From assembly GCA_023898465.1 (NCBI GenBank), contig CP060223.1, forward strand, positions 672,001-736,000: 64,000 nt of DNA, in the 5' to 3' direction. The number at the start of each line of letters is the position of its first letter. Position 1 is the stretch's first letter. The notes under the pieces are model-generated. The model was given only the letters and a program-made list of their open reading frames with translations, searched no databases and was not told the origin of the DNA. The DNA is from Candidatus Nomurabacteria bacterium (GTDB lineage: Bacteria > Patescibacteriota > Patescibacteriia > HK-STAS-PATE-3). Of this stretch, positions 17,524-60,839 are shown piece after piece. The position numbers were made by a program, and so were the translations under genes.

Positions 17524-18138
17524 TTACTGCATCGCTTCCTTTAATCGCATGATGCTGACCAGGGCGCCTCGCTCCTGCTCATCCAATTTGCTGGAAATGT
17601 ATTTCACATTCCGCTCAATCTCGGGAACAAAGACAAACTCAAGTGCATTCACACGACGACGCGTCTTCTCAATCTCAGCTGAGAGTAAACGAGCTGAGTG
17701 CTCGGTCTGAGCTAACTCCACGATCTTTGGCAGCGCATCTGAGAATGTTTTCAGAGAAGTATCAAGTCCAGAGGAAGTAGTTGCCAAAGAGTAGCTCAGG
17801 AAATCACCTGACTCGGCATACTGAAACTGTGGCACCTGCACACTCATGACGTTCTTGGTTGCCACCTGCAATTGAATTTGCTTCGTGGTGACTGCCAGCG
17901 CTTCCTCGGTTACTTCCGGACGCATATCAGCTGAAGCGATAATGAAACTCTGGAACGCTTGACCGAGCTGAGCCTCTACTTCTTGTCGTAAGCTGCGAGT
18001 CTTTTTGATGATACCTAAGAACTCCTGCATCAAGCCTTCGAGTTTTTCCTCGAGTAAAGAATGACCGCGCTTGGCCATCTTGAGCTTACCCTTGAGTCGG
18101 ATAAGCTCCATGCGTGTTGGGTTAATCGTTTGCGCCAT
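17524..18138 (-). CDS. atpD: V/A-type ATP synthase subunit D
   Basis: MAQTINPTRMELIRLKGKLKMAKRGHSLLEEK… typical NtpD/AtpD N-terminus; last gene of operon. Confidence 0.9.
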   Translation of the reverse strand: MAQTINPTRMELIRLKGKLKMAKRGHSLLEEKLEGLMQEFLGIIKKTRSLRQEVEAQLGQAFQSFIIASADMRPEVTEEALAVTTKQIQLQVATKNVMSVQVPQFQYAESGDFLSYSLATTSSGLDTSLKTFSDALPKIVELAQTEHSARLLSAEIEKTRRRVNALEFVFVPEIERNVKYISSKLDEQERGALVSIMRLKEAMQ

Positions 18139-18221
18139 AGGGTAATGAGTGTTCGAGCGTATCCGCCCAGAGCGGAGAAGTCGAGAACCGAGCTTAGCTT
18201 CTCGACAAGCTCGAAGACTAA

Positions 18222-19628
18222 TTAGGAGTCAGATTTGGGTAAATACTTCTCAATATATTCTTCTTTCACACGCTTCAGTTCAGACTTCGGCAAGATGGAG
18301 AAGAGTTCCCAACCGAGATTCAAGGTCGTGAGAATATCGCGATCCTCATACTCACCTTGGTTGATGTAGCGTGACTCAAACTGCGTGGCAAATTCCACGT
18401 ACTTCTTATCAACGTCGGACAGAGCAGCTTCACCGAGGATAGCGGCTAATTCCTTTGCCTCAGTGCCACGAGCGTAGGCAGCATAGAGCTGGTTAAAGAC
18501 TCCGGAGTGATCCTCACGAGTCTTCTCTTCTCCGATACCCTTCGGCATCAGACGAGAGAGACATGGCAGCACATCAACTGGAGGACGAATACCGCGCTTG
18601 TGCAAGCCGCGGCTTAACATGATTTGTCCTTCGGTAATGTAGCCGGTCAAGTCAGGAATTGGATGTGTCTTATCATCTTCCGGCATGGTAAGAATCGGGA
18701 TCTGGGTAATTGAACCCTTCTTACCCTTGATCATACCAGCGCGCTCGTACAGGGTAGCTAAGTCAGTGTAGAGGTAACCTGGGTAGCCACGGCGACCTGG
18801 GACTTCTTTACGAGCTGCCGCAACTTCACGCAAGGCTTCACAGTAGTTAGTCATGTCGGTCAGGATAACCAAGACGTGCATGTCCTTTTCAAAAGCCAGA
18901 TACTCGGCAGTGGTCAGAGCCAAGCGAGGTAGAGTGATACGTTCAACCACCGGGTCATTTGCCTGGTTCAAGAAGAGTACCGCGCGGCTGATAGCACCGG
19001 TCTTGCGGAATTCATTTACGAAGTATTCTGCTTCTTCAAAGGTGATACCCATAGCGCCAAAGACTACAGCGAATTGGGAATCCTCTGCTTCCACTTTACC
19101 CTGCGGGGAAACGCGAACCACTTTTGCCTGACGAGCGATTTGGGCGGCCATGGCATTGTGTGGCAAACCAGCGCCGGAGAAAATCGGTAGCTTTTGTCCA
19201 CGCACTAAAGTATTCAATCCATCAATCGTGGAAATACCGGTTTGGATAAAGTCATTTGGGAAGTTACGGGAGTATGGGTTAATCGGATTACCGTTCACGT
19301 TCAAACGTGCTTCGGCAATGATTTCGGCTCCACCGTCTTTTGGCTTACCTGAGCCGTCAAAGACGCGACCAAGCATGTCGGTGGAAACTGGCAATTCCAT
19401 AACGCGGCCGAGGAAGCGGGCGGAAGCATCCTGCACGCTAATACCGCGAGTGTCTTCAAACATCTGTACCACTGCCCGATCATTGTCGATTTCGAGCACG
19501 CGGCCGCGGCGAATCTTGCCATCAGGCAATTTCACATCGACCAGCTCTTCGTATTTGACGCCTTCCACTCCCTCAACAATGAGGAGAGGACCAGCGACTT
19601 CACGTAGTGTCTTGTATTCTCGTTCCAT
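18222..19628 (-). CDS. atpB: V/A-type ATP synthase subunit B (regulatory)
   Basis: 468 aa, [23 protein letters not shown]…, non-catalytic nucleotide-binding fold. Confidence 0.92.
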
Positions 19629-19639
19629 ATGCGTGCTCC

Positions 19640-21385
19640 TTAGTTAGCGGCAGCTACGGCGGACGGAATCTCCGTCACCAGCTGCTCCAGCTCCTTAATC
19701 TTCTCTGTCGGCACTTCTTTCATGCGGCCGATGCGCTCTTTGATTGGCAGGTTGACCATCTGCTTCAAGTTCACTCCCCGCTCCAGCGCCTCTTGGGCGG
19801 CGTGGTGGAAGGCCAGGATACCCTTTAACATGTAGTATTGCTTCTGCAGACTGGTGTAGGTATCAACGTCATCGAAGGCGTTTTGCATCAGGAAGTCTTC
19901 GCGTAATGCTCGAGCGGTTTCTAATACTAATTGCTCCTTAGCCGACAAAGCGTCCTGTCCGACCAAGCGAACGATTTCTTCTAGCTCAGACTCTTGCTGC
20001 AGTAAGCGCATAGCTTCACCGCGCAATTCGCCGAAATCACTGCCGGTTTCTTTGCTGAAGAAGCTTTGTAAATCATCTGAGTAGAGTGAGTAGCTGGTTA
20101 ACCAGTTAATTGATGGGAAGTGACGGCGATAGGCCAGCTTCGCTTCGAGTGACCAGAACACTTTTGTCACACGTAAGGTGTTTTGCGTTACTGGCTCAGA
20201 CAAGTCACCGCCAGGAGGAGAAACAGCTCCTACCACAGTGAGTGAACCTTGGCGACCTTCGCTACCGAGTGTTTCCACGATTCCAGCTCGCTCATAAAAG
20301 GCGGCGGTACGGGAACCAAGATAGGCTGGGTAACCTTCTTCACCTGGCATTTCTTCCAGACGACCAGAAATTTCACGCATAGCCTCGGCCCAGCGGGAAG
20401 TTGAGTCAGCCATCAAGGCAACGCTGTAACCCATGTCACGGAAATATTCCGCAATAGTGATACCGGTATACACCGATGCTTCACGAGCTGCCACCGGCAT
20501 ATTGGAGGTGTTGGCAATCAACACTGTGCGTTCCATCAAAGGCTTACCAGTCTTAGGATCTTTTAACTCAGGGAATTCCAGCAACACGTCAGTCATTTCA
20601 TTGCCGCGCTCACCGCAGCCGATGAAGATAACAATGTCCGCATCAGCCCACTTCGCCAGCTGGTGCTGAATCACGGTCTTACCAGCGCCGAAAGGACCAG
20701 GGATACACGCGGCACCGCCCTTCGCAACTGGGAAGAAGGTATCAATAATGCGCTGTCCGGTAATCAGAGGACGCATTGGAGGTAATTTTTGCTTGACCGG
20801 TCGTGGATCGCGAATTGGCCAGCGCTGCAACATGGTGATTTCTTCTTTATCAACCACTGCTACAACTTCGGTAATGTTGTGTTCACCTGTCGCAATTTTT
20901 TTCACAGTACCTTCTTGAATATGTGGAGGTACGAGAATTTTGTGGGTGATCAGGCTGGTTTCTTGCACCTCACCCAGGACATCACCAGCGTGCACGACAT
21001 CACCCTCTTTTACCTTTGGCTGAAAATCCCACTTCTTTTCTTCATCAAGTGGAGCTACATCCAAACCGCGACCGATGAAAGCGCCTGAGCGCTCTTCCAG
21101 CTTCACGAGCGGTCGCTGAATACCATCATAGAACGAGGTCAGCAAACCCGGACCCAGAGTCACGGCCAGAGGGAGCTCAGTGCGGTACACTGGCTCGCCT
21201 GGTCCTAAACCTCCGGTGTCTTCATACACCTGGATATAGGCTTGATCGCCGTCCAGACGGATGATTTCTCCGACCAATTTCTGTTCGGATACTTTCACCA
21301 CTTCATACATTTTCGCTCCTTGCATGCCTTTCGCAACCACGAGAGGGCCGGAGACTTTGGTGATAATTCCTGTGTGTTCTTTCAT
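19640..21385 (-). CDS. atpA: V/A-type ATP synthase subunit A (catalytic)
   Basis: 581 aa, [21 protein letters not shown]…, P-loop GPFGAGKTV. Confidence 0.93.
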
Positions 21386-21450
21386 ATAATTCTCAAGTAT
21401 TCAAGTTGCAAATATCAAGCTACAAATTACTACTTGTCATTTGATACTTG

Positions 21451-21777
21451 CTACTTGTCGTTTTTAAAAAGTATATCGCTACCTACTGCGCGCTCGACAA
21501 TACGACGCAGCTCTCGATCCCCCGCTCCAGTCGAACCAGTTGGCCCAGGGACCACGGTGACTGCTGGCAAAGCTCGAGTACGTAATTCATCTAACTCTGG
21601 ACGCAATTGATCAGCCCAATCCTCGGTGATGAGGAGGATGGCGCATTCTGAAGCAGCGATTTGCTGCAGCACCTCACGACCTTGCTCAGCTGTGGCTACT
21701 GGCCAAGCCCGCACGCCTAGCGCTTTGAAGCCGCCGATGGCATTTGGTGAACCAAGAATAGCGATTGGATGATCCAT
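21451..21777 (-). CDS. atpF: V/A-type ATP synthase subunit F
   Basis: Start at MDHPIAILGSPNAIGGFKALGV (ATG 21777, 1 nt after atpC stop, TAACATG); about 108 aa. Confidence 0.8.
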   Translation of the reverse strand: MDHPIAILGSPNAIGGFKALGVRAWPVATAEQGREVLQQIAASECAILLITEDWADQLRPELDELRTRALPAVTVVPGPTGSTGAGDRELRRIVERAVGSDILFKNDK

Positions 21778-21778
21778 G

Positions 21779-22774
21779 TTAGTAGAGCTCCCGGATGTAA
21801 GGTTTAATAGCGTCGCCTGGCAAACCATTTAACTTGCCTGACATGATTAAACGCACGTTACGAATAGCATTCTTCTTTGCGTAATAATATGCCAAAGGTA
21901 ATTCAGGACCGTAATCAATGAATTGAGCTTCCCGCACATGTGCCAGCTCAGCATTCTCCAGATCACGCTCTAATGTTTCCAGTGAATCAGTTTCGCGGAA
22001 TCGTTCCAGAGCCGGCTGCAGAGATGAGGGCACCAGCGTGGTTAAGCGCTGCAAGGCTTCTTCATTACTTAAGCCCAAGAGTGACTCGTAGTCATCCAAG
22101 GTGACGTTTCCATTCATTAACACTTCCGCGAGGAGGTAACGATCATCGAGCTGGAAGCGACGTCCTCGAATCCAGGTTTTCAGATTAGCCATGTCAATCT
22201 GTAGCACCACTAAATCCATAATCCACTGACTATCGATTTCCTGGGCGATCTGAACGCGTTCAGCAAAGTATTGTCGATCTAGCCAGCGATCAATATAGGC
22301 TGACTGCACTTCCACTGTAGCGGCTTTTTCCTCAACCAGATCAATCCCCCGCTGGATATAGTCAGGCAATTCATGCTGAGCTTCCTGCATCAGGTTTTCT
22401 TGCAAAGTAGCAAATGGGACGGTACTGAGCGGTGAGGCCCAGGCAGTCGCGTCCTGATGAAAGTACTTCTGCTTCATCAACAACTTCAAGTTGTGATAGT
22501 CATGGCGCATAAAGACAAGCGCCACGAGCTTCTCATCAGGACACATTTCAATAATGCGCTCTTTTGCTTGCAATAAATCTGCTTCGAGTGACTGATTAAA
22601 CTCAGCCGGTGCGATATCGCCTACGTTGTCGAAGTAATCGGTGTCATGAAACACGCGAAAAGCTGACTCCATATCTGGAGCATCAACCATGCGTTCCACA
22701 TCGGTCGGATTCAAAAGATTCGACTCAAGGTGTCGTACAACTCCGGCTGCGTAGAGATAATCGTCTCGGCTCAT
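21779..22774 (-). CDS. atpC: V/A-type ATP synthase subunit C (d-like)
   Basis: 331 aa alpha-helical protein in the conserved operon position between E and F. Confidence 0.8.
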   Translation of the reverse strand: MSRDDYLYAAGVVRHLESNLLNPTDVERMVDAPDMESAFRVFHDTDYFDNVGDIAPAEFNQSLEADLLQAKERIIEMCPDEKLVALVFMRHDYHNLKLLMKQKYFHQDATAWASPLSTVPFATLQENLMQEAQHELPDYIQRGIDLVEEKAATVEVQSAYIDRWLDRQYFAERVQIAQEIDSQWIMDLVVLQIDMANLKTWIRGRRFQLDDRYLLAEVLMNGNVTLDDYESLLGLSNEEALQRLTTLVPSSLQPALERFRETDSLETLERDLENAELAHVREAQFIDYGPELPLAYYYAKKNAIRNVRLIMSGKLNGLPGDAIKPYIRELY

Positions 22775-22777
22775 AGT

Positions 22778-23341
22778 TTAGACAAAAAGTTGGGCAGCTA
22801 CCGCCGCTTCAGTTTGCGTGCGGATGTTAGCTAAGAGTGTGGCAAAGCGACAATCGACTTCAATCGCTTCTGAGCGCCAGATAAATCCACCTTCGGCGTC
22901 AACTGACTCTTTGGCTATGGTCCAGTCGCGCTTGAGGCCATGGAGCGCCTTCTTGGTCTGCGCTTCTTTACCCTTGGCTGGGATTATCTCCCCTTTTTCA
23001 TTAGGTAGCTGGGTAAAGAGTTGCTGCAAGAATGCTTCGTAGTCGGCGTCACTTAATTGGCTAAGCTTTTGCAAAGCCTTTTCGTACACCGAAGCTAAAA
23101 CGCGACGCTTCTCAGTTAACACTGATTGACGCAAACGCGATTCAGCGGCGAATCGCTCCATATCACTTTCCTGACGCACAGCCCGATCGGCCTGAGTCAA
23201 CGCTTGGTCACGGGCTTTACTCATACGCCCTTCCCACTCGCTGAGCAGAGCATCGCGCTCTTTGGCATGAGCAGCCTGAATTTGCGCGAGCTCTTTGTCG
23301 GCTTCAGCCTGCACACTCTGGAGAAGTTGATTGAGTGCCAT
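22778..23341 (-). CDS. atpE: V/A-type ATP synthase subunit E (peripheral stalk)
   Basis: 187 aa, long N-terminal coiled coil and globular C-terminus; operon position. Confidence 0.8.
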   Translation of the reverse strand: MALNQLLQSVQAEADKELAQIQAAHAKERDALLSEWEGRMSKARDQALTQADRAVRQESDMERFAAESRLRQSVLTEKRRVLASVYEKALQKLSQLSDADYEAFLQQLFTQLPNEKGEIIPAKGKEAQTKKALHGLKRDWTIAKESVDAEGGFIWRSEAIEVDCRFATLLANIRTQTEAAVAAQLFV

Positions 23342-23347
23342 GGATGC

Positions 23348-23815
23348 TTAGACGGTGATGCCGTTTAAGAGCAAAATGGTAGCGAGCAATCCAAGTACGG
23401 CGTAGGTTTCTACTACCGCAGCGAAGATAATACCCTTACCGGATTCTGACGGTTTCTTTGCCACGATACCGACGCCAGCCGCAGCTACTCGACCCTGGTA
23501 CAAACCAGAGAGTAAGCCGGTGAAGGCAATTGGTAAACAAGCAAAGAAGATTTCCCAACCGGTGTTGACGGAAATCGTTGCTACTTCTCCGCCGAGTAAA
23601 CCGATTTTCTGCAGCGCCATGATAGCACCGAGGAATCCGTAAATACCCTGCGTACCAGGAAGCGCTTGGAGCAAAAGTACGCGTCCAAACTTTTCCGGGT
23701 CAACTGATACGAGGCCAGAGGCAGCTCGACCCACTGTGGCAGTACCGAGAATCGAACCGATTCCGGCGAGGCTGACCGCAGTGATGGCTCCAGCAATTGC
23801 GAATGCGAGTCCCAT
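23348..23815 (-). CDS. atpK: V/A-type ATP synthase subunit K (proteolipid, duplicated 4-TM form)
   Basis: 155 aa, Gly/Ala-rich hydrophobic hairpins, conserved acidic residue context (…VETYAVLGL…). Confidence 0.85.
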   Translation of the reverse strand: MGLAFAIAGAITAVSLAGIGSILGTATVGRAASGLVSVDPEKFGRVLLLQALPGTQGIYGFLGAIMALQKIGLLGGEVATISVNTGWEIFFACLPIAFTGLLSGLYQGRVAAAGVGIVAKKPSESGKGIIFAAVVETYAVLGLLATILLLNGITV

Positions 23816-23831
23816 ATGGTTCTCCTGTTAA

Positions 23832-25871
23832 TTATGCAGATGTCGACTTTGGACCAGAGGCGTCCTGATCGGCATCCATCTTGTTATGAATAAGATCTGA
23901 CTGAGTTAAGGTGTCCACATCAACGTACTTTGCCTGACGAGCAAAGGACTTAAAGCGACTACCGCCGCCTTCCATAAACTTCGGGAAAAATTCCACGTAT
24001 TGCAAACGGCCTGAGTGGATAAAAGAGCCGAGTGCGTTTATAGCAAGATTGAAAAGGTGTCCCCCAACCAAAATTCCGATAGCTACCACCCATCCGAAAA
24101 TCGGGATCATGTCTTTGAAAAGTAAGGCAACCATATTCACCACTACGGCAATGATGCCAGTGGAGAGTCCAAGTGCGAGCAAGCGAGAATATGACATGAC
24201 ATCAGAAAAATAACCGACAATGTTGTACAGACTGAGGATGCCCATTGGAATCTTCAGGAAAATATTTTTTTGGCGACGGCCCTGCGTCAAAACCAAAGTA
24301 GCAAGACCAGCGTACACCCAATACACACCAATTTGCCCTAAGATATCGCTCTGTATCGCCTGCCCGGCAACCAGCCAGAAAACTACACCGATTAAGAGGA
24401 AGAGCCAAGCGCCAGCATCAAAAGCTGCGTCCCAGGACTTCTGGCGAATTTGGTAATACAAATTAATACTCACACCAACAATTACCTGCACCACGCCAAT
24501 AGCGAGGGAGAAAACGAGTAGAGTGAGTGGATTGCTGACCGGATCGATAATCTTCAGGCTGAGTAAAAAGGATGTGATGGCATTCTTTGGTAGATCTTCC
24601 AAAACTAGTCCAAACCAACCACCAAAAGCTGCACCTACTACAAAGGTGGCAATACCAGCGTAGATAAGGAGTCGATAAAAGCCTTGCTTAGCTCGTGGCA
24701 ACTTAAAAAGTTTAATAGCGAGGAAAGAAAAACCAGCCAAAATAATGCCATAGCCGGCGTCTGACAAACACATGGCAAAATAGAAAATGAAAAACGGTGC
24801 CAGATAAGGTGTCGGGTCTAGTTCATTTGGCTTAGGTGCACCATAAATACTAGTAACTGATTCAAAAGGCTGCACTAAATTAGTATTTGTAAGCAGTACT
24901 GGAGGCTCTTCATCCTCTGCTAAAGCCAGCTCAAGGAGGGTAGCGCTCGTGCTCACCTTATGTAGAGCTTCTTCTAGCTCAACAAAACGAGAAGCTGGAA
25001 TGTATCCGCTCAACGCAAAGGTACGCTCTTGCGAAGCTGCGTTTAAAGAGGCGGCAACTTTATCACGTTGCCAAGTCAGGCCGTCAAAAATAATCTGTAG
25101 GTCGTGTACGTGCTGAGAAAGCTTTGTCGCTTCTGCTTGGGCAGTTTCCAATAAAGCAGCTAAGCGCAACATTTCCTTTTCTCGCTCAGTAATCGCCTCT
25201 TGGACAGTGCCCTGATGCTCAGGCAAGTTTACTTCTTGGAAATGATATTCCGTCAGCGCATTCTGCAACCAAGCCTCAGCTGAACGATGACTGACAATAT
25301 ATACCTTTACCTGCTTATCTGTACCAGGTAAGCGTTGTAGCTCAATTGCTTGATGCTCTTTGGTAATAGCTGCTTCAAGAAGCATGAGCTGCTCTTCAGT
25401 GAAAGTGCCGATGCGTACCTGTGCGCTCTCTAGTTTTTGATCTAAGCGCAGCGATAAATCTGACCAATGAGCGAGTAATAGCTGTTCTGCGCGCATCCGA
25501 TTGATATCAGACTGGTAGCTATTCATATCAGCTTCCAGTTTTTCTACCTGCTGGATGAAAGGCGCCAAATCAAATTCCTGCAATAACTTGGCCACTTCTT
25601 CATGTGAAACCGTAATTCCCTGGCTACCCATCGCAGCCAAACGCTCTCGAAAGCTCTGTTTTTGCTTCGGGGTATAGCGAGCAAGGAAATCCAAAGCAAA
25701 CTTTACACCAGCCAAGCGATACTCAATCTGGGATAATGCTTCATTTTGTTCCTCAGCTCCATCCATATGGATAAGCTGCATTTGGCCAAAATCATAGAGC
25801 AGTTCGAGCATTTTCTGCCGATCTGCCTGGAGACCGAGGACAAGGATTTTCTTTACCGGAGCTACTGCCAT
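23832..25871 (-). CDS. atpI: V/A-type ATP synthase subunit I (a-subunit)
   Basis: 679 aa, cytoplasmic N-terminal half plus C-terminal multi-TM domain with conserved Arg region (…SYSRLLALGL…). Confidence 0.88.
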   Translation of the reverse strand: MAVAPVKKILVLGLQADRQKMLELLYDFGQMQLIHMDGAEEQNEALSQIEYRLAGVKFALDFLARYTPKQKQSFRERLAAMGSQGITVSHEEVAKLLQEFDLAPFIQQVEKLEADMNSYQSDINRMRAEQLLLAHWSDLSLRLDQKLESAQVRIGTFTEEQLMLLEAAITKEHQAIELQRLPGTDKQVKVYIVSHRSAEAWLQNALTEYHFQEVNLPEHQGTVQEAITEREKEMLRLAALLETAQAEATKLSQHVHDLQIIFDGLTWQRDKVAASLNAASQERTFALSGYIPASRFVELEEALHKVSTSATLLELALAEDEEPPVLLTNTNLVQPFESVTSIYGAPKPNELDPTPYLAPFFIFYFAMCLSDAGYGIILAGFSFLAIKLFKLPRAKQGFYRLLIYAGIATFVVGAAFGGWFGLVLEDLPKNAITSFLLSLKIIDPVSNPLTLLVFSLAIGVVQVIVGVSINLYYQIRQKSWDAAFDAGAWLFLLIGVVFWLVAGQAIQSDILGQIGVYWVYAGLATLVLTQGRRQKNIFLKIPMGILSLYNIVGYFSDVMSYSRLLALGLSTGIIAVVVNMVALLFKDMIPIFGWVVAIGILVGGHLFNLAINALGSFIHSGRLQYVEFFPKFMEGGGSRFKSFARQAKYVDVDTLTQSDLIHNKMDADQDASGPKSTSA

Positions 25872-38486: not shown

Positions 38487-38860
38487 ACATAAGGAGTATA
38501 GCCGATGCCTCCCTGCTTCGGCAAGGTTCAAATATTCTACCAGGCGTCCCTGCCTTCGCAAGGCTATAAATAGAAAGCCCCGCCTCATCTCAATACAAAG
38601 TGTTGTGATGGACGGGGCATGGGTTTAGGACGACGCATCGTCATCCTTCTTCTCTGGGTCGGGCTTCTCCTCCTCATCTTTTGGAGGATCACCACTCCCC
38701 CCGCTCGGTCGCCAATCCGTTGCAAAACGAACTGGCTCAATGAGCACTGGAGCTTCAGGTTCAGGCTCTTCCGGCGGCGGCTGTTCTGGAATTTTCATCA
38801 CGCGCTCCTTTTCGCCTCCATGGCATCAGCATCTTTCACCAAGTTGAAAAAGAAGTCAAT

Positions 38861-38921
38861 AAGAAAAAGCCTCGCCTCGCACTTCGCTCACCCAAGGGTG
38901 AAAGAAGATACGAGACGAGGC
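38861..38921 (-). terminator. Long-hairpin rho-independent terminator (repeat copy 1)
   Basis: Minus strand: GCCTCGTCTCG-…TCACCCTTGGGTGA…-CGAGGCGAGGC followed by TTTTTCTTATT. Near-identical to the copy at 40316..40376. Confidence 0.65.
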
Positions 38922-38939
38922 GCTAGCAATGTGCAATCC

Positions 38940-39494
38940 TCACAGCGCATCGAAGCTGATCAGTCGACCATCAGGACCAAAAACCCAAAGTCGACTCAGC
39001 CGCTCTAATGTTTGACGGAAGTTTTCCCTGTACTGCTCCAGCGTCGCCCGAACGATTTCCTGGCAATCCTCACCCTGAAGATTCGGGTCTGACTTCAGGG
39101 CAATGATATCGTCCCGGTAGCTTATCGCCGCCTGACGAAGCGCTGCAGCAATCCGACCATTCTGCTCGTGCACAAACTCCCTTCTCAATTGGCCTATGTA
39201 GGCCGCAGCCTGCTGCTCATAGTACTCGATGATCGCCCTGGACACTGCTTCAGCAACACTCAAACGAGTGGCGTAGTGAAGCTTGATCAGCTCCAGTGCT
39301 CTGGAATGGATTTGCCGGCGAAGCCTCCAGTCAAAACCAAAGTGTCCGAGACCTCGACAACGCTCCCTGGCTTCAGCTACTACCGCGTCAACATCCAGAT
39401 CGTTCAGCCCACTCTCCAAGGCCTGCGGCGAGGCACGTACCAAAGCAGATGAGTCAGTTGAGATAAACTCCCAGTTATCCTCTTCTCTACCCAT
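38940..39494 (-). CDS. Hypothetical protein (third gene of a 3-gene operon)
   Basis: Start set at MGREEDNWEF (ATG 39494) with GGAGG SD overlapping the stop of the upstream gene; track ORF extends to 39581. No family recognised. Confidence 0.5.
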   Translation of the reverse strand: MGREEDNWEFISTDSSALVRASPQALESGLNDLDVDAVVAEARERCRGLGHFGFDWRLRRQIHSRALELIKLHYATRLSVAEAVSRAIIEYYEQQAAAYIGQLRREFVHEQNGRIAAALRQAAISYRDDIIALKSDPNLQGEDCQEIVRATLEQYRENFRQTLERLSRLWVFGPDGRLISFDAL

Positions 39495-39498
39495 AGGT

Positions 39499-39750
39499 CT
39501 AACCTCCTGGCAGAAGGAGCTGGCCTGCACCAAGTCTCCGTATCTGCTGATCATAGGATTGAAGCTGTCGTTCACGCTCACCAGATGCTAGACCCAATTT
39601 CGTCAGCTCAGCATCGAGCTTTCTTCGCTCCTCAATCAGGACTTCGGCAATTCGCTGCCGCGCTTCCTTCTGTATTCCCTCAACTTCGTCTCGGGTATGT
39701 TGTACGATTGTCCGAATGGACGCTAAGACCTCACTCTCTTCCACGGGCAC
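39499..39750 (-). CDS. Hypothetical small coiled-coil protein
   Basis: 83 aa, Glu/Arg-rich helix; tightly coupled to flanking genes (3-4-nt gaps). Confidence 0.45.
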   Translation of the reverse strand: MPVEESEVLASIRTIVQHTRDEVEGIQKEARQRIAEVLIEERRKLDAELTKLGLASGERERQLQSYDQQIRRLGAGQLLLPGG

Positions 39751-39753
39751 ACC

Positions 39754-40275
39754 TCATGCTCGATTAATGTCATCACGTGCCGTACCAAATGCATCTCGAT
39801 GGCGCCGCCGCTCTTCCTCAGACAAAGAGCCTTCCAAGCTGGCGAGATTCCGCCAGCCTCGCCGCTTTGCCTCAGCCTCACTCAGCTCCACTTCTCGAGC
39901 AGTATTGTTCATTGCTCCTAGGACTCGAATTCTACTTTCCTCAGTAGAGCGTGTGGCTGCCGTCCTTTGATCCATGCTATCTATCATAGCTTGCAACTTT
40001 GCAGAAGTTCGCAAAGAGTCAGCACGGCGCTTCTCAACTGCATTCTGAAACCACACGCGCTCTTCTTCTTCCCTCTTCTGTATCCGGCTTACGGCTCCAA
40101 CAAAAAGAAGGACGAGAATGATTGGCCAGAACTTTGCTACCAGAAACGCAAACAACAGAAACACGATGATTCCTATGACTGCCATAAGGCACACTCCCTG
40201 TGTCACGGTGTAATAACCAAAAGAAGAAAGGGCATGCGCCCCTTGCGTATTTTCAAGGTCCTTTCCGTTCTTCAC
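39754..40275 (-). CDS. Hypothetical membrane protein with cytoplasmic Arg/Glu-rich coiled coil
   Basis: 173 aa; two TM helices (MAVIGIIVFLLFAFLVAKFWPIILVLLFVGAV); the track start at 40275 is a GTG codon; internal ATG (M31) is the alternative. Confidence 0.5.
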   Translation of the reverse strand: MKNGKDLENTQGAHALSSFGYYTVTQGVCLMAVIGIIVFLLFAFLVAKFWPIILVLLFVGAVSRIQKREEEERVWFQNAVEKRRADSLRTSAKLQAMIDSMDQRTAATRSTEESRIRVLGAMNNTAREVELSEAEAKRRGWRNLASLEGSLSEEERRRHRDAFGTARDDINRA

Positions 40276-40315
40276 TTTTTGTATAACTCTAATATCTTAG
40301 GAAGTCAATGGATAA

Positions 40316-40376
40316 GAAAAAGAGCCCCGCCTCGCACTTCGCTCACCCGAGGGTGAAAGAAGATACGAGACGGGGC
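40316..40376 (-). terminator. Long-hairpin rho-independent terminator (repeat copy 2)
   Basis: Minus strand: GCCCCGTCTCG-…TCACCCTCGGGTGA…-CGAGGCGGGGC + TCTTTTTCTTATCC. The T->C change in one arm is matched by A->G in the other relative to copy 1. Confidence 0.65.
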
Positions 40377-40407
40377 AAGGAGGCAGAGCTCGCCTGGTCG
40401 AAGATGA

Positions 40408-40959
40408 TCAGCCGAGCGTGGAGCTTCCGTGAAGCGTCTTCACGTCGATCTGCAGTGCCGCCGGGCCTCGAAAGTCACCGAGACGAAGTGACACTTCTTC
40501 TTGAACGTCGATCTGGTAGGAGCAGTCCATCTGGGTTTCATCACCCGCGTCCGGCAGGCGATCCCAGATGATGTACTGCGCCGTAGCATCCGGACCGGAT
40601 CGCGCAGTGACCTCCGGCACCGTGGTCCCATAGTGGCTGACGATGATGCTCTGAGTCCCCGGTTGTTCCGGCCGAGACGTCAGAACAGACTCGACCTGTA
40701 CCCACGGAGTCAGGGCGAAGTCGATCTGGACCTGATTGAAGCTGCTCTGATCCGAAGCCGGCAACAGAACAACCTCACCACCTGCGGAAGCGTAGAGACC
40801 GTCGGGAGCGATGGTGTTGTCGTCCATAGCGTACGTCGCCGCCATTTGAGACACACCCGGATCGTCCCCTCCGGCCGCGTAGATCGGCGGAGCGTGTGAA
40901 AGAGCGTAGCCGCACAGAACGATCAACGCGATCGCCCAGAGCGACAACTTCCTGAGCAT
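40408..40959 (-). CDS. Hypothetical secreted protein (signal peptide), GC-rich gene
   Basis: MLRKLSLWAIALIVLCGYALSHA signal peptide; GGAGG SD 7 nt upstream; no family recognised. Confidence 0.6.
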   Translation of the reverse strand: MLRKLSLWAIALIVLCGYALSHAPPIYAAGGDDPGVSQMAATYAMDDNTIAPDGLYASAGGEVVLLPASDQSSFNQVQIDFALTPWVQVESVLTSRPEQPGTQSIIVSHYGTTVPEVTARSGPDATAQYIIWDRLPDAGDETQMDCSYQIDVQEEVSLRLGDFRGPAALQIDVKTLHGSSTLG

Positions 40960-41092
40960 GTGGACCTCCTAAGGCGAAGTTCCATCTCGTAAGCAACGTT
41001 GCTACTCCCACAATACTTTTGTGGTGAGCATTCACATGGTAACTAAAAGCTTCTCGAGTAGTCAATAGAAGAAGATACACAGTGAATACTGC

Positions 41093-43807
41093 CTATAACT
41101 CAGGCGCCTGCTCGACTCGGATAACCCCACCAACCTCTAAAATCGCTTTATCACGACGACCTAACTGACCCTTTAAGAGATAGTCAGCTAATGCGTTATC
41201 AACTCGCTCTTGAATAACACGGCGCAAAGGTCGAGCACCAAAGACCGGATCAAATCCAATCTCAGCTAATTCCTGCACCGCAGCTTCAGTTGCTTCAAAA
41301 GTAATACCGCGACCCTCTAATTGTCGTTGCACCTTTGCAAGAAGTAGGCGCACGATCTGCACAATCTCATCCTTTTGCAATGGGCGGAATACGGTAATCT
41401 TATCAAAACGGTTGAGAAATTCTGGGCGATAATATTGATTCAGCACGGAGTTGATGAGCTCCTGCGTAATACCTTCAATCGTGGCCTTTTCTTGAATGCG
41501 TTTTTGAATCAGGTCTGAACCTGCGTTGGAGGTTGAAATGATAATCGTATTGGTGAAGTCGATCGTACGACCAATGCCATCAGTTAATCGGCCATCATCA
41601 AACACCTGCAGGAAAATATTCAACACATCAGGATGCGCCTTTTCCAATTCATCAAGCAAGACGAGAGAGAAGGGACTCTTGCGCACCGCTTCAGTTAAGT
41701 AACCGCCTACTGGACCCTGCGTGCCTTGATTACTACCGATCAGGCGAGAAATACTGCTCGGCTCCTGATACTCCGACATGTCGAGACGGATCATCGCATC
41801 CTCGGATCCAAAATACGCTTCGGCTAAAGTTTTTGCCAGCTCGGTTTTACCTACACCAGTCGGACCAAGGAAAAGGAAGGTGGCAATCGGTCGCTTTTGA
41901 TCACGCAATTCTGCTCGAGCACGACGGAGCGCTGCGGCAACTGCTTTGACTGCCTCATCCTGACCAATGATGCGCTGATGCATGGTTGATTCCAAGTTGA
42001 GTAACTTCTCAGACTCGGACTCATTCACTTTAGTTACTGCCACATGCGTTTTACTAGAAACAATCTTTGCCACATCTTCACCGTCTACAAAACTATTCTT
42101 ACCTTTGTGCTTATGAGCATCAACTGCAACTTCTTCCAGCAAGCTAATCGCTTTTTCCGGCAAGTAGCGATCGTGCATGTAGCGCTGTGAAAGGACTACG
42201 GTTTTTTCTAATGCATCGTAGGTAAAGAAAATGTGATGCTTATATTCAAGCGGACCGGCCTTCACCATAAGTATGCGCACCGCTCCATCAGTATCTACTT
42301 CCTGGCAATCAACTTTGGTAAAGGTGCTGGTGAGTGAAGATTGGTTTTCAATATAGCGCGTGTAGTCAATTGGATTAGTGGTGCCGATCACCTGCACTCG
42401 TCCGGTCTCCAGTGCCTGACTCAACACATCAGAGAGATCAAAACTCTCTCCACCGGCTGAAGAAATACCAACAATGTTTTGAATATTATCAATGAGTAAA
42501 ATGATATTTCCTGACTTCACCACTTCAGACAAAATCTGATTCAAGCGTCCTTCTAATTCTCCAGTTGACCCGGCATTACCAACCAGAGCTGCCACAGATA
42601 ATGAAACCAGGCGCTTATCTTTCAAAACATCCGGCACTTCCTCGGTCACCATGCGGCGAGCAATGCCATCGACAATCGCAGTCTTCCCTACGCCAGGATT
42701 ACCAACCAACATGGGACTGCCGCCTCGCTCCAAAACGCGAAACATTTCATCCAGCACTTCCTCACGTCCGACAGTCATCGGGACAGCGCCCCGTTGCGCT
42801 AAATCAGTTAAGTCATGGCTGTACTGATTCAGCATTCGAGTTTCTTGTGCCGTCATGGCCCGGTTCATACCACGCTTCGGTCGCCAAGCTGCCCGCTTAC
42901 GGAAACGCTTATACTGCTCGCACAAATCTTCCTCAATATGCGCCCAAGCCACAACGTGTCGCAGCTTGTTCTCATCTACTTCTAGGTCATAAAGAATATC
43001 CTGGGTGTGCGTTTCTGAAGTAGCTAAGGCGACCAAGACTTCCAGCACGCCAACTTGTTGACGCTTCGTTGCATAGGCTTCTCGATAGGCAGCGCAGAGT
43101 AGCTTTTTTGTTGAAGTGGAAAGATGCGGCTCCCCTGGCCAATCCTGTGGCATGCCAGTGAAAAGTTTCCCAATGCGTTGCTTCAATTGCTCGTACTGAA
43201 TATTTAAACGGGCAAAAAGTACAGCCGCTGTCCGCGTAGTTAACATTGCCGCTAAAATATGCGAGGGCCAAATTTCACGATGATTTAAATGATTCGCAAT
43301 ATCCCAAGCCTGCTGCAGCATGTGCTCTAACTCGTTGTCGAGCAAAGCTGGTAGGTCCTCTACTTTGTCGGCAAAATCTGCCTCGGAGATTTGCTCCAAG
43401 GACAATACCGTCTCCATCTCAGCTGGAGTCTGTCGCGTAATTTTCTTTCGCGGTTTTAACTCTCGCTCAATGCGAAAGTAGGCGTAACAGTCAGTTGCTA
43501 ATGAAATCCAAAAGATCAACATAGCTGGGCTGCGCAAATCCCAAAGGTCGAGCAGTGAAGCGCCGCCCTGAAGCAGTTGATACAACTCCCAAAAACCAAT
43601 GAGGAAACCCGCCAGACCAAAGAAGACTAGGAAACCGTTTATAAAGGCACGTAATCCTCGAGCAAACTTTTCGCCACTTACTTCGCTGCGACCAAATGTT
43701 TTATCCCAGTACAAAATCCGACTGCCAAACATCTCAGAGTAAGGCGCTGGTCGCTGGCCCTTTGGACTGGCCGGTGCTGGATTAGAAAAGCTGTCGGATG
43801 ATGGCAT
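41093..43807 (-). CDS. ClpA/B/C-family AAA+ chaperone ATPase with N-terminal 2-TM membrane anchor
   Basis: 904 aa. About 130-aa N-terminal extension with two hydrophobic helices; Clp_N repeats; AAA-1 (GNPGVGKTA, Walker B IILLIDNIQ); AAA-2 (GPTGVGKTE, LVLLDELEKAH, sensor motifs). No obvious long ClpB middle domain. Confidence 0.85.
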   Translation of the reverse strand: MPSSDSFSNPAPASPKGQRPAPYSEMFGSRILYWDKTFGRSEVSGEKFARGLRAFINGFLVFFGLAGFLIGFWELYQLLQGGASLLDLWDLRSPAMLIFWISLATDCYAYFRIERELKPRKKITRQTPAEMETVLSLEQISEADFADKVEDLPALLDNELEHMLQQAWDIANHLNHREIWPSHILAAMLTTRTAAVLFARLNIQYEQLKQRIGKLFTGMPQDWPGEPHLSTSTKKLLCAAYREAYATKRQQVGVLEVLVALATSETHTQDILYDLEVDENKLRHVVAWAHIEEDLCEQYKRFRKRAAWRPKRGMNRAMTAQETRMLNQYSHDLTDLAQRGAVPMTVGREEVLDEMFRVLERGGSPMLVGNPGVGKTAIVDGIARRMVTEEVPDVLKDKRLVSLSVAALVGNAGSTGELEGRLNQILSEVVKSGNIILLIDNIQNIVGISSAGGESFDLSDVLSQALETGRVQVIGTTNPIDYTRYIENQSSLTSTFTKVDCQEVDTDGAVRILMVKAGPLEYKHHIFFTYDALEKTVVLSQRYMHDRYLPEKAISLLEEVAVDAHKHKGKNSFVDGEDVAKIVSSKTHVAVTKVNESESEKLLNLESTMHQRIIGQDEAVKAVAAALRRARAELRDQKRPIATFLFLGPTGVGKTELAKTLAEAYFGSEDAMIRLDMSEYQEPSSISRLIGSNQGTQGPVGGYLTEAVRKSPFSLVLLDELEKAHPDVLNIFLQVFDDGRLTDGIGRTIDFTNTIIISTSNAGSDLIQKRIQEKATIEGITQELINSVLNQYYRPEFLNRFDKITVFRPLQKDEIVQIVRLLLAKVQRQLEGRGITFEATEAAVQELAEIGFDPVFGARPLRRVIQERVDNALADYLLKGQLGRRDKAILEVGGVIRVEQAPEL

Positions 43808-59777: not shown

Positions 59778-60180
59778 GGGGGATGCCCAATAATCGATCG
59801 ATCGTTCACAATCTGTGCAGGCAAGCCGGTCACCCAGGTCTCCCGTAACAGGCCCTGGAAAAAGCAAGTGTCAATTCATTTGCCAGCAAGGTAAAGAACT
59901 CCATTGCTAACGCAATGCAGTCACTCCAACTTGCGCCAGTTGTCGCGTAAAAACCGATAACCATCTATGCTTACGATGTCCTGAGTTGTTCGCATGGGTG
60001 CTACACTTATCAGGATAGGAACCTACCTTGTCTCGGGTTTGTTCCGAACTATTGAGACTAGGAAATAAATGATTTCGTTCGTTTCATACATTTGTTTCTG
60101 AAGCATTAAAGCGAACTAGGCTTGTAGAATGTACACGATTGTACGATGAGACGCGGGCGTGATACCCGCCATCTCCACCA
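59778..60180 (+). ncRNA. ssrA: tmRNA (ssrA), predicted
   Basis: About 400-nt ORF-free gap right after smpB. 5' GGGGAUG pairs with 3' CAUCUCC-A-CCA, giving a 7-bp acceptor stem with G3:U wobble (the Ala identity element) and encoded CCA. T-arm GCGGG-CGUGAUA-CCCGC sits just before it (same stem as E. coli, deviant loop). 5' AUCGAUCGUUCACAAUC is complementary to 3' GAUUGUACGAU (P2). Perfect 8-bp terminator hairpin immediately follows at 60182-60207. Candidate tag frame ends …LAPVVA-UAA. Confidence 0.6.
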
Positions 60181-60181
60181 A

Positions 60182-60207
60182 CCTTCGCTGTATTGAGCGA
60201 AGGTTGT
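60182..60207 (+). terminator. Terminator hairpin after ssrA
   Basis: CCTTCGCT-GTATTG-AGCGAAGG followed by TTGT. Confidence 0.5.
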
Positions 60208-60236
60208 CCGCCGAAGCTTTATGCGAAGGTGGACAA

Positions 60237-60839
60237 ATGAATGTACATCAACAAGTATGCGGTAACGCAGCTTCGGTTGGCACGGCCATCCGAGATATGC
60301 ATTCAAACATTTATTCATTAACCACTCCGGCAATTCAGAAAAGGCTTCGCATCAATCACTTTATTCGGATTCCTGAAGTTCGCTTGATTGACGAACAAAA
60401 TACACAGGTGGGGGTTGTTCCAACTTCAGATGCCTTACGCATGGCAGAAGAACGGGGCCTCGACCTTGTTGAGGTTGCACCACAAGCTCAACCGCCGGTC
60501 TGTCGCCTACTCGACTACGGCGCCTATCAATATCAACAGGAACGCCAAGAACGAAAAGCCAAAGCCAAACAAAAGAAGTCTGAAGTCAAAGGAATTCGCA
60601 TCTCTTTCAAAATCGGTGAACATGATCTGGATGTTCGCCAGAAGCAAGCCCAGAAGTTCCTCGAGCAGGGTCACAAAGTGAAATTAGAAATGCTACTGCG
60701 TGGTCGAGAAAAGGCCATGAAGCATCTCGCTGAAGAAAAGCTCCGTAATTTTGTGAGCACGCTCGGTGAATCCGTCACCATTGATCAAGATATTACCCGC
60801 CAAGGAGGAAAATTTTTCCTCGTAGTCCGTAAAAAATAA
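60237..60839 (+). CDS. infC: Translation initiation factor IF-3
   Basis: …IRIPEVRLIDEQNTQVGVVPTSDALRMAEERGLDLVEVAPQAQPPVCRLLDYG… typical IF3. Start uncertain: ATG 60237 has AAGGTGG SD; ATG 60297 or a non-AUG (ATT) start, as in many infC genes, are alternatives; track ORF starts at 60159. Confidence 0.85.
   Translation: MNVHQQVCGNAASVGTAIRDMHSNIYSLTTPAIQKRLRINHFIRIPEVRLIDEQNTQVGVVPTSDALRMAEERGLDLVEVAPQAQPPVCRLLDYGAYQYQQERQERKAKAKQKKSEVKGIRISFKIGEHDLDVRQKQAQKFLEQGHKVKLEMLLRGREKAMKHLAEEKLRNFVSTLGESVTIDQDITRQGGKFFLVVRKK

What the first reader, a model, noticed from the sequence alone, without database searches (positions are those of the whole stretch)
38851..40376. Two near-identical about 70-nt terminator repeats with a compensatory base-pair change
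Copies at 38851-38921 and 40301-40376 share GAAGTCAAT…AAGAAAAAG…GCC(T/C)CGCCTCGCACTTCGCTCACCC(A/G)AGGGTGAAAGAAGATACGAGACG(A/G)GGC. On the minus strand each folds into an 11-bp outer stem plus inner TCACCC-N3-GGGTGA hairpin followed by a U-tract. The single arm difference (T vs C) is matched by A vs G in the partner arm, giving direct evidence of selection for pairing. The same element closes both the secreted-protein gene and the 3-gene operon, and it creates the spurious ASHFAHPRVKEDTRRG-containing ORFs in the six-frame track.
Basis: seen in the sequence. Interest (0 to 1): 0.5.

Follow-up and report, generated by a model that had tools for sequence, protein, structure and literature searches.

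The report
Duplicated long-hairpin terminators in ORFan island
Two nearly identical 53-nt hairpins, each followed by a U-tract, most likely act as ordinary transcription stop signals closing two gene units in a small strain-specific island of a Candidatus Nomurabacteria genome; they are real and probably functional, but not a new kind of element.

Summary
Copies lie at 38852-38921 and 40301-40376, and no others occur in the 64-kb window. On the minus strand each folds into one interrupted 23-bp hairpin (-38/-43 kcal/mol, z about -6.5), followed by a U-tract and a conserved ATTGACTTC. Three G-U pairs make the minus-strand RNA the better folder. Each hairpin starts 18 or 31 nt after a minus-strand stop codon. 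They are the two most stable hairpin-plus-U-tract sites in the window, about twice as long as the clean examples at gene ends.

Both lie in a 2.2-kb, GC-richer island of ORFan genes between clpC and a small conserved gene (orf57) upstream of glyS. One related strain has both copies; another lacks the island. The native terminator after orf57 shares the outer stem and tail and may be a distant third relative.

The compensatory U-A/C-G change is real but is a single event (P about 0.02), so "direct evidence of selection" is too strong. The core sequence is absent from three public DNA collections, so there is no sign of a dispersed family.

Best reading: duplicated intrinsic terminators with an attached -35-like box. 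They resemble phage PeSL terminator-promoter cassettes in layout, but membership is not shown. Termination itself is inferred, not measured.

The parts
38869..38921 (-). Copy W1: 53-nt interrupted hairpin (23 bp, loop CUUG). It begins 18 nt after the TGA of the 184-aa gene.
   Evidence: -38.4 kcal/mol, z -6.5; second most stable hairpin-plus-U-tract site in the window.
38852..38868 (-). W1 tail: U-tract UUUUUCUUA (38868-38860), then the conserved ATTGACTTC (38860-38852). The -35-like TTGACT is at 38859-38854. A weak -10-like AAAGAT lies 17 nt further on (38836-38831), outside the repeat.
40324..40376 (-). Copy W2: 53-nt interrupted hairpin (23 bp, loop CUCG). It begins 31 nt after the TGA of the 183-aa signal-peptide gene.
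   Evidence: -42.7 kcal/mol, z -6.9; most stable hairpin-plus-U-tract site in the window.
40301..40323 (-). W2 tail: U-tract UCUUUUUCUUAUCC (40323-40310), then ATTGACTTC (40309-40301). TTGACT is at 40308-40303.
40280..40285 (-). -10-like TATACA, 17 nt after the W2 TTGACT. It is conserved in strain R although the spacer has three substitutions. Together they form the candidate promoter of the 3-gene operon.
   Evidence: read directly; not picked up by the scan, which requires a T at position 6.
38560..38618 (-). T0: native terminator after orf57 (hairpin 38618-38577, U-rich tail to 38560). It shares the outer stem GCCCCGUC/GAGGCGGGGC and the tail UUUCUAUUUAUAGCCUU with W1 and W2, and may be a distant relative.
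   Evidence: (best non-self nhmmer hit in the window, E 0.033). The ortholog in L005 shows a compensatory C-G to U-A change.
40408..40959 (-). 183-aa ORFan with an N-terminal signal-peptide-like segment. This is the unit closed by W2.
38940..40185 (-). Three-gene ORFan operon closed by W1: 143-aa membrane protein (39754-40185), 81-aa protein (39499-39744) and 184-aa helical protein (38940-39494).
38802..41028 (-). The strain-variable island that holds both copies. GC is 52-60% against about 46-48% around it. The island is absent from the related contig L005.

Best explanation
W1 and W2 are paralogous Rho-independent transcription terminators read on the minus strand. Each closes one transcription unit of a 2.2-kb strain-specific island inserted between clpC and orf57/glyS. 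W2 closes the 183-aa secreted-protein gene. W1 closes the 143/81/184-aa operon.

The nascent RNA would fold into a 23-bp GC-rich hairpin directly followed by a U-tract, which releases RNA polymerase. The duplicated unit also carries ATTGACTTC 9-15 nt after the stem. This probably serves as the -35 box for the next unit, most convincingly TTGACT-17-TATACA downstream of W2. The repeat would then be a composite terminator-plus-promoter-start module that insulates inserted genes from clpC read-through and restarts transcription.

The two copies are alike because they share descent: local duplication or recombination while the island was assembled, possibly from the native T0 terminator. They have stayed alike through structural constraint, and probably through occasional gene conversion.

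Shown: the sequence, the fold, the strand asymmetry, the position relative to genes, the conservation in a second strain, and the substitution pattern. Inferred: actual termination, promoter activity, and the duplication history.
For: Fold. The hairpins fold at -38.4 and -42.7 kcal/mol, z -6.5 and -6.9, and no shuffle does as well. Three G-U pairs (7-47, 12-42, 20-35) become C/A mismatches on the plus strand. That costs 6-9 kcal/mol as RNA but only about 1.5 kcal/mol as DNA, which points to an RNA-level role on the minus strand.

Position. U-tracts start at the stem base, and the hairpins begin 18 and 31 nt after same-strand stop codons. The organism has other canonical terminator-like hairpins just downstream of stop codons (for example 13005-12976 and 44300-44279). 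W1 and W2 are the two strongest of 264 candidate sites.

Conservation. In strain R (SRR17818317) both copies occupy the same positions. The assembly breaks 30 nt into the repeat at each end.

Substitution pattern. Across W1, W2, R1 and R2 there are five variable columns. Two form the compensatory pair 4-50, two are unpaired (loop position 28 and mismatch position 36), and one is the terminal pair. Random placement gives P about 0.013.

Concerted evolution. Position 36 is C in both W copies and U in both R copies, which hints that the copies are homogenised within a genome.

Local context. W2 lies in a roughly 370-nt block that is 95-100% identical between strains and is flanked by 50-70% identical gene segments. 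Three of the four intergenic minus-strand TTGACT sites in the window are the three in the island, each 61-123 nt upstream of a gene start. T0 shares the outer stem and tail.
Against: No transcript data were available, so termination and promoter activity are untested.

The stems are about twice as long as the clean terminator-like hairpins at gene ends in this window. Termination alone does not require that length, so it may signal an extra or different role.

The -10 candidates are weak: TATACA lacks the final T, and AAAGAT after W1 is poor. They lie outside the repeat.

Covariation rests on one pair. The column-shuffle control is not significant (122 of 500).

The link to T0 is statistically weak: E 0.033 in the window, and 0.36 for the L005 copy.
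Confidence: 0.7

Rival explanations
1. The elements are mobile regulatory cassettes in the manner of phage PeSLs. Their main significance would be as about 75 bp of portable homology. Recombination between copies, or with incoming DNA carrying a copy, would insert, delete or swap ORFan gene cassettes. Terminator and promoter activity would then be what makes the captured genes tolerable and expressible. This overlaps with the best explanation rather than excluding it.
For: The direct repeats bracket a 1,455-bp three-gene ORFan cassette. The island is present or absent between close strains. The two modules differ in GC (about 60% vs 51-55%) yet end in the same element. The element sits at the centre of the best-conserved block of a mosaic region. 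Position 36 suggests sequence exchange between copies. PeSLs are described as terminator/promoter composites that flank ORFans and mediate indels and mini-circles (PMC2839356, PMC4122927).
Against: Only two copies (three with T0) are seen, all at one locus. No strain was found with a single hairpin and the cassette deleted. The one empty site (L005) has no hairpin at all, and its junction is at GTGATGAA(G/A), not in the repeat. No further copy turned up in any collection scanned.
Confidence: 0.15
2. The hairpins are mainly RNA processing or stability elements. The 23-bp duplex would be an RNase III site or a block to 3' exonucleases. It would cut a long clpC-island-glyS transcript into segments or protect the upstream mRNAs, rather than stopping polymerase.
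For: A stem of about two helical turns is more than termination needs, and by my own recollection of the literature it is in the size range of RNase III substrates. The stems are far longer than the clean terminator-like hairpins at gene ends here. The internal bulge and the 1x1 mismatch are conserved in all copies.
Against: The immediately adjacent U-tract, conserved in every copy, is the hallmark of termination and is not needed for processing. The two roles are also not exclusive.
Confidence: 0.08
3. The hairpins are DNA-level sites of a dedicated recombination system: integron attC sites, IS200/IS605-type subterminal hairpins, or REP or MITE elements. They would mark cassette boundaries.
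For: The array topology resembles a cassette array: site, gene plus hairpin, three genes plus hairpin. The hairpins are imperfect, with one bulged base.
Against: The stem ends have no RYYYAAC...GTTRRRY cores. No integrase, transposase, TnpA/TnpB or RAYT was found among the window ORFs of at least 180 aa that were screened, or in the gene table around the island. The island proteins hit nothing in Pfam, PHROGs, PADLOC or NCBIfam. There are no terminal inverted repeats. The G-U asymmetry is an RNA property. The element is not dispersed within the window.
Confidence: 0.03
4. The copies are a neutral leftover of a local duplication and have no function of their own.
For: The paralogs differ by 3 of 53 positions. 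That is similar to the divergence between strains in the flanking coding sequence (about 5.6%), so the element is not ultra-conserved.
Against: The changes avoid breaking pairs. The repeat boundaries coincide exactly with the stem base and the -35-like box. Placement after stop codons and the U-tracts are kept in two strains.
Confidence: 0.04

Closest known systems
Canonical Rho-independent (intrinsic, 'L-shaped') bacterial terminators
   Same: A GC-rich hairpin is followed immediately by a U-tract, 18-31 nt downstream of a same-strand stop codon. The element works in one direction only. G-U pairs show that it is the RNA, not the DNA, that is constrained.
   Different: The stem is 23 bp (53 nt), against 11-14 bp (27-32 nt) for the clean terminator-like hairpins at gene ends in this window. 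The two copies are 94% identical to each other, and the shared unit runs on into a -35-like box.
PeSL (promoter-early stem-loop) cassettes of T4-type phages (Arbiol et al. 2010, PMC2839356; Comeau et al. 2014, PMC4122927)
   Same: Both are composite repeated units: a terminator stem-loop, an AT-rich stretch and a sigma-70-type promoter element. Both lie immediately next to ORFan genes in a region that differs by indels and replacements between close relatives.
   Different: PeSLs occur about 50 times per phage genome and carry full consensus -35 and -10 boxes. Recombination between them and mini-circles have been demonstrated. Here there are two or three copies at one locus of a bacterial (CPR) chromosome. 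Only the -35-like box lies inside the repeat, and no recombination product has been observed.
Repeated palindromic elements that act as terminators or mRNA stabilisers (REP/BIME, ERIC, and Neisseria Correia elements or paired uptake sequences; from my own knowledge, not checked here)
   Same: These are repeated intergenic palindromes at gene 3' ends that affect transcript ends.
   Different: Those families are dispersed in tens to hundreds of copies. This element shows no dispersal in 64 kb and no match in public collections.
Integron attC sites
   Same: Imperfect hairpins stand at the 3' end of each unit of a tandem gene array.
   Different: There are no R''/R' core sites and no integrase in the window. 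A U-tract and G-U strand asymmetry point to an RNA function.

Membership tests
Intrinsic (Rho-independent) terminator | Stable GC-rich RNA hairpin | tested here: met
   The hairpins fold at -38.4 and -42.7 kcal/mol, z -6.5 and -6.9, with 0 of 200 shuffles as good. They are the top two of 264 hairpin-plus-U-tract candidates in the window.
Intrinsic (Rho-independent) terminator | U-rich tract starting at or within 2 nt of the stem base | tested here: met
   The tracts are UUUUUCUUAUU (W1) and UCUUUUUCUUAU (W2), and UCUUUUCUUAUU in strain R.
Intrinsic (Rho-independent) terminator | Located shortly downstream of a stop codon, on the same strand as the gene | tested here: met
   The hairpins begin 18 nt and 31 nt after the TGA codons of the 184-aa and 183-aa genes, on the minus strand.
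Intrinsic (Rho-independent) terminator | Transcript 3' ends form in the U-tract (termination in vivo or in vitro) | not testable with these tools
   No transcript data were accessible.
PeSL-type terminator/promoter cassette | The repeated unit joins a stem-loop to a sigma-70-type promoter (-35 and -10) | tested here: inconclusive
   The -35-like TTGACT lies inside the repeat in all copies. The -10 candidates (TATACA, AAAGAT) are weak and lie outside the repeat.
PeSL-type terminator/promoter cassette | Many copies concentrated in hyperplastic regions of a T4-type phage genome | tested here: not met
   There are two copies plus a doubtful third in 64 kb of a bacterial chromosome. The island has no phage match.
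PeSL-type terminator/promoter cassette | Flanks ORFan genes at sites of indels or replacements between close relatives | tested here: met
   The island genes have no family or homologue outside this lineage. The island is absent from L005. Divergence between strains W and R is mosaic.
PeSL-type terminator/promoter cassette | Recombination between copies produces deletions or mini-circles | not testable with these tools
   This needs read-level data. No single-hairpin variant was found among the accessible contigs.
Integron attC | R'' (RYYYAAC) and R' (GTTRRRY) core sites at the ends of the stem | tested here: not met
   The stem ends read GCCYCGU...GCGRGGC, with no AAC/GTT cores.
Integron attC | An integron integrase (tyrosine recombinase) nearby | tested here: not met
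   No recombinase domain was found in the window ORFs of at least 180 aa that were screened, or in the gene table for 30.4-51.0 kb. ORFs at 60159-60839, 61830-62570 and 62948-63562 were not screened.
REP/BIME/MITE-type dispersed repeats | Many dispersed copies in the genome | tested here: inconclusive
   There are no other copies in the 64-kb window. The 42-kb k=31 assembly runs unbroken through both copies. I take this to mean that no other copy in that sample shares a 31-mer with them. The other 1.02 Mb of the genome could not be searched.
IS200/IS605-type element ends | TnpA (Y1/HUH) or TnpB encoded between the hairpins | tested here: not met
   The three enclosed proteins hit no Pfam, PHROGs, NCBIfam or PADLOC family.
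Any Rfam family | Score above the gathering threshold | tested here: not met
   Nothing at gathering level covers the element. A permissive scan gives only chance-level hits, for example mir-593 at 17-18 bits against a threshold of 100.

The most novel reading that the evidence does not exclude
The hairpin + U-tract + TTGACTTC unit could be a bacterial-chromosome counterpart of phage PeSL cassettes. It would be a portable terminator/promoter module that Candidatus Nomurabacteria (CPR) genomes use as a homology anchor to capture, insulate, express and swap ORFan surface-protein cassettes at hotspots such as clpC-glyS, with no dedicated recombinase.
Probability: 0.12. Interest if true: 0.55.

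Novelty: new member of a known kind. Interest (0 to 1): 0.25.

Why it matters
Taken at face value this is a well-formed pair of intrinsic terminators. Its practical use is for annotation. It fixes the 3' ends of two transcription units. It shows that the plus-strand ASHFAHPRVKEDTRRG ORFs are artefacts. It also supports the shorter start calls for the 143-aa gene and for glyS.

The wider interest is modest. The locus shows how a reduced CPR genome accommodates foreign ORFan genes between two housekeeping genes: each inserted unit carries the same terminator-plus-(-35) module. If that module turned out to recur at other variable loci, it would extend the PeSL idea of regulatory cassettes as recombination anchors from T4-type phages to bacterial chromosomes. 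It would also give a handle on gene flux in CPR bacteria.

Tried and rejected
**Dispersed family**
- The exact core patterns TTCGCTCACCCNNGGGTGAAAGAA, CGTCTCGTATCTTCTTTCACC and GGGTGAGYGAAGTGCGAGGCG gave 0 hits in every collection scanned. The first went to genome contigs, metagenome contigs and viral contigs, the second to metagenome contigs and viral contigs, and the third to viral contigs only.
- The first pattern was too strict. It would have missed even strain R, which has GAGTGAAG, so the genome-contig result is weak. The window's own genome is evidently not in that collection.

**Close relatives through GlyRS**
- The genome-contig scan gave nothing closer than 57% identity.
- The N-terminal GlyRS protein search listed nothing closer than 72% and omitted the known 90% cluster. 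The 3' flank of strain R copy 1 was therefore not recovered.
- P0007, a member of the GlyRS cluster, led to an unrelated contig rich in kinase genes.

**Known families**
- Rfam gave nothing at gathering or permissive thresholds.
- The island proteins gave nothing in Pfam, PHROGs, PADLOC or NCBIfam.
- The 184-aa protein has no homologue among 1.84 billion representatives other than strain R. Its AlphaFold model (pLDDT 66) is a helical bundle with no significant PDB match.
- The island DNA has no phage or plasmid match.

**Readings rejected**
- attC, IS200/IS605 and REP readings were rejected for lack of core sites, recombinases and dispersal.
- A resemblance between the L005 empty-site spacer (GGCGAGGGCTCTGCTTGACTT) and the hairpin 3' arm was dropped. 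It is not conserved in strain R, and that spacer does not fold.

**Technical failure**
Full report
**1. What is in the sequence**

The window holds exactly two copies of the element. The ungapped core is 38864-38921 vs 40319-40376 at 93% identity. With two small tail indels the unit is 38852-38921 and 40301-40376. blastn-short and nhmmer find no other copy in 64 kb.

On the minus strand each copy reads as follows. First comes a 53-nt hairpin, GCCYCGUCUCGUAUCUUCUUUCACCCUYGGGUGAGCGAAGUGCGAGGCGRGGC. Then comes a U-tract (UUUUUCUUA, or UCUUUUUCUUAUCC), and then ATTGACTTC.

The fold is one interrupted helix of 23 bp: 13 bp, a bulged U14, 4 bp, a U19/C36 mismatch, 6 bp, and a 4-nt loop. Energies are -38.4 and -42.7 kcal/mol, with z -6.5 and -6.9.

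Three G-U pairs become C/A mismatches on the other strand. The plus-strand RNA is therefore 6-9 kcal/mol weaker. As DNA the two strands differ by only about 1.5 kcal/mol. This asymmetry points to a minus-strand RNA function.

The hairpins begin 18 nt after the stop of the 184-aa gene and 31 nt after the stop of the 183-aa gene. The plus-strand ORFs that contain ASHFAHPRVKEDTRRG are translations of the repeat.

**2. Where it sits**

The window matches a Candidatus Nomurabacteria (CPR) MAG. It is identical to a Logan contig over 20.5 kb.

In minus-strand order the locus runs as follows:
- a clpC-like gene (43807-41093);
- TTGACT (41065-41060);
- the 183-aa signal-peptide ORFan;
- W2;
- TTGACT-17-TATACA;
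- a leader of about 88 nt containing a small conserved hairpin;
- the 143-aa, 81-aa and 184-aa ORFans;
- W1;
- TTGACT, a Shine-Dalgarno sequence and orf57 (38798-38625);
- terminator T0 (38618-38577);
- the glyS promoter(s) and glyS.

The stretch 41028-38802 has 52-60% GC against about 46-48% around it.

Its proteins match nothing in Pfam, PHROGs, PADLOC or NCBIfam. Homologue searches were run for two of them. The 184-aa protein has a homologue only in one related strain, both in the 5.8-billion-sequence collection and among 1.84 billion representatives. The 183-aa protein has only one diverged homologue (52% identity), from that same sample. The 90% clusters of the 81-aa and 143-aa proteins hold no other strain.

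No recombinase or transposase was found among the larger ORFs screened in the window.

**3. Comparison with related strains**

*Strain R (SRR17818317).* Both copies are present at the same positions. Contig L004 ends, and contig L003 both starts and ends, exactly 30 nt inside the hairpin. That is what a k=31 assembly does at an exact repeat. From this I infer that R1 and R2 are identical over positions 2-54.

*Contig L005 (SRR32105342).* It shares the 90% GlyRS cluster and is an empty site. About 70 nt after clpC comes orf57, then T0 and glyS, with no island and no long hairpin.

*orf57 is a real gene.* Between the window and L005 it has 21 nucleotide differences, 17 of them at third codon positions. 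Sixteen changed codons are synonymous and four are not.

*Island junctions.* An 8-of-9 direct repeat, GTGATGAA(G/A), lies at the island junctions: at the left end in strain R and at the right end in the window. This suggests a target duplication or a microhomology join at the orf57 start codon.

*Mosaic divergence.* Between strains W and R, the 5' two-thirds of both the 183-aa and the 143-aa gene are only 50-70% identical. The block 40585-40217 is 95-100% identical; it covers the 3' end of the 183-aa gene, W2, the promoter and the leader. The rest of the operon is 94.4% identical.

**4. Is pairing under selection?**

Across W1, W2, R1 (inferred) and R2, five columns vary:
- the pair 4-50 (U-A in W1, C-G in the others);
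- loop position 28;
- mismatch position 36;
- terminal position 1 (G to A in R1, which breaks the last pair).

Twenty-one of the 23 pairs never vary. Random placement gives P about 0.017 for the two-copy observation and about 0.013 for at most one lone hit in a paired column. The column-shuffle control cannot be significant with four sequences (122 of 500).

The orthologous T0 terminators add an independent compensatory change (C-G vs U-A) and a one-sided U-G/C-G change.

The pattern therefore favours structural constraint but is thin. Hairpin-templated repair or gene conversion could mimic it.

Position 36 is C in both W copies and U in both R copies. It groups the copies by genome rather than by locus, which hints at concerted evolution. 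This rests on one site.

**5. Comparison with other terminators in the window**

A scan of all U-rich sites preceded by a closing hairpin gave 264 candidates. W2 (-38.9) and W1 (-36.8) rank first and second, and the next candidate is -27.9.

Clean terminator-like hairpins of 27-32 nt (11-14 bp) lie just after stop codons, for example at 13005-12976 and 44300-44279. The organism therefore appears to use intrinsic terminators, and these two are unusually long ones.

T0 is 42 nt long. It shares the outer stem GCCCCGUC/GAGGCGGGGC and the tail UUUCU.UUUAU(U/A)G(C/A)CUU with W1 and W2. It is the best non-self nhmmer hit in the window (E 0.033), sits 250 nt away on the same strand, and occupies the same structural register. 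The L005 version is weaker (E 0.36). I rate homology as plausible but unproven.

**6. Mechanism**

The best-supported reading is that W1 and W2 are duplicated Rho-independent terminators that close two transcription units of an inserted ORFan island.

The repeat runs 9-15 nt beyond the U-tract into ATTGACTTC. TTGACT followed at 17-18 nt by a weak -10 (TACCAT, TATACA, AAAGAT) precedes all three downstream units. Of the four intergenic minus-strand TTGACT sites in the window, three are these.

So the unit looks like a terminator plus the start of a promoter. It would shield the inserted genes from clpC read-through and restart transcription. Termination and promoter activity are both inferred.

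**7. Comparison with known systems**

- *Intrinsic terminators.* All sequence-level defining features are met.
- *PeSL cassettes of T4-type phages.* This is the closest described analogue of the repeated composite. PeSLs are terminator stem-loop plus sigma-70 promoter units that flank ORFans in hyperplastic regions and mediate indels and mini-circles (PMC2839356, PMC4122927). The layout and context are similar. Copy number, host replicon, a full promoter inside the repeat, and demonstrated recombination are not met or could not be tested.
- *attC, IS200/IS605 ends, REP/MITE families and all Rfam families.* These fail tested features.

**8. Limits**

The other 1.02 Mb of the genome could not be searched, so a low-copy dispersed family is not excluded. 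Zero further copies in about 61 kb argues only against more than about 50 copies per genome.

The 42-kb k=31 contig runs unbroken through both copies. I take this to mean that no other copy in that sample shares a 31-mer with them.

No close relatives exist in the GTDB representative set as sampled. No transcript data were available.

**9. Verdict**

The terminator interpretation is well supported at the sequence level. "Direct evidence of selection" is overstated, and "dispersed family" is not supported.

This is a new member of a known kind and is of low to moderate interest. It has a small chance of being the first glimpse of PeSL-like regulatory cassettes in a CPR chromosome.

Noticed in passing
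window 38625-38798 (-): orf57 is a 57-aa proline- and acid-rich ORF between clpC and glyS, and it is a real gene. Against the L005 strain it has 21 nucleotide differences, 17 at third codon positions (16 synonymous and 4 non-synonymous codons). It has no family match. In the window it has a Shine-Dalgarno sequence (AAGGAG) supplied by the island's right end; in the empty-site strain it has none.
   Followed up: partly
window 38793-38801 (-) and L004 892-900; empty site L005 1216-1224: An 8-of-9 direct repeat, GTGATGAA(G/A), lies at both island junctions, right on the orf57 start codon. It looks like a 9-bp target duplication or a microhomology join. The island has no terminal inverted repeats and no transposase.
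   Followed up: partly
window 40227-40244 (-), L003 106-123: A second small hairpin, AAGGGGC-loop-GCCCUUU followed by a U-rich stretch (CUUCUUUUGG), lies in the leader of about 88 nt upstream of the 143-aa gene. The stem is identical in strain R, but the loop differs at all four positions (GCAU vs AGGC). It could be a leader attenuator.
   Followed up: no
window 40186-40275 (-): The NCBI annotation (H6760_03535, 173 aa) starts this gene at GTG 40275. The stretch upstream of ATG 40185 differs from strain R by compensating indels and has no Shine-Dalgarno sequence. ATG 40185 keeps a conserved GGAG box. The 143-aa call is therefore more likely.
   Followed up: partly
window 40585-41028 and 39923-40216 (-): The 5' two-thirds of the secreted 183-aa gene and of the 143-aa membrane-protein gene are only 50-70% identical to strain R. 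Everything else in the island is 94-100% identical. This indicates either allele replacement or diversifying selection on exposed N-terminal parts.
   Followed up: partly
window 38495-38561 (-): The glyS promoter region appears tandemly duplicated in this strain (TTGCGA-16-TAGAAT and TTGCCG-18-TATACT), but it is single in L005. The TATACT box ends 8 nt before the glyS ATG (38486), so the mRNA may be nearly leaderless. The 470-aa GlyRS call (start 38588) overlaps these signals and is probably too long; 436 aa is more likely.
   Followed up: no
window 38577-38618 (-) vs L005 1389-1425: The native terminator T0 shows its own compensatory change between strains: pair 5 is C-G in the window and U-A in L005. 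The inner loop sequence is completely replaced.
   Followed up: partly
window 4492-6819 (-): A 775-aa protein gives a full-length AAA_13 match (E 7e-118), with a weaker AAA_21 (AbiEii-type) match. It may be a defence or anticodon-nuclease-type ATPase.
   Followed up: no
window 41093-43807 (-): The Clp ATPase (clpC/clpB-like, 904 aa) has an N-terminal extension of about 160 aa that looks hydrophobic, ahead of the Clp_N domain. That is unusual for this family.
   Followed up: no
window 17524-25871 (-): A V/A-type ATPase operon (subunits D, B, A, C/AC39 and I) is present in this CPR genome.
   Followed up: no
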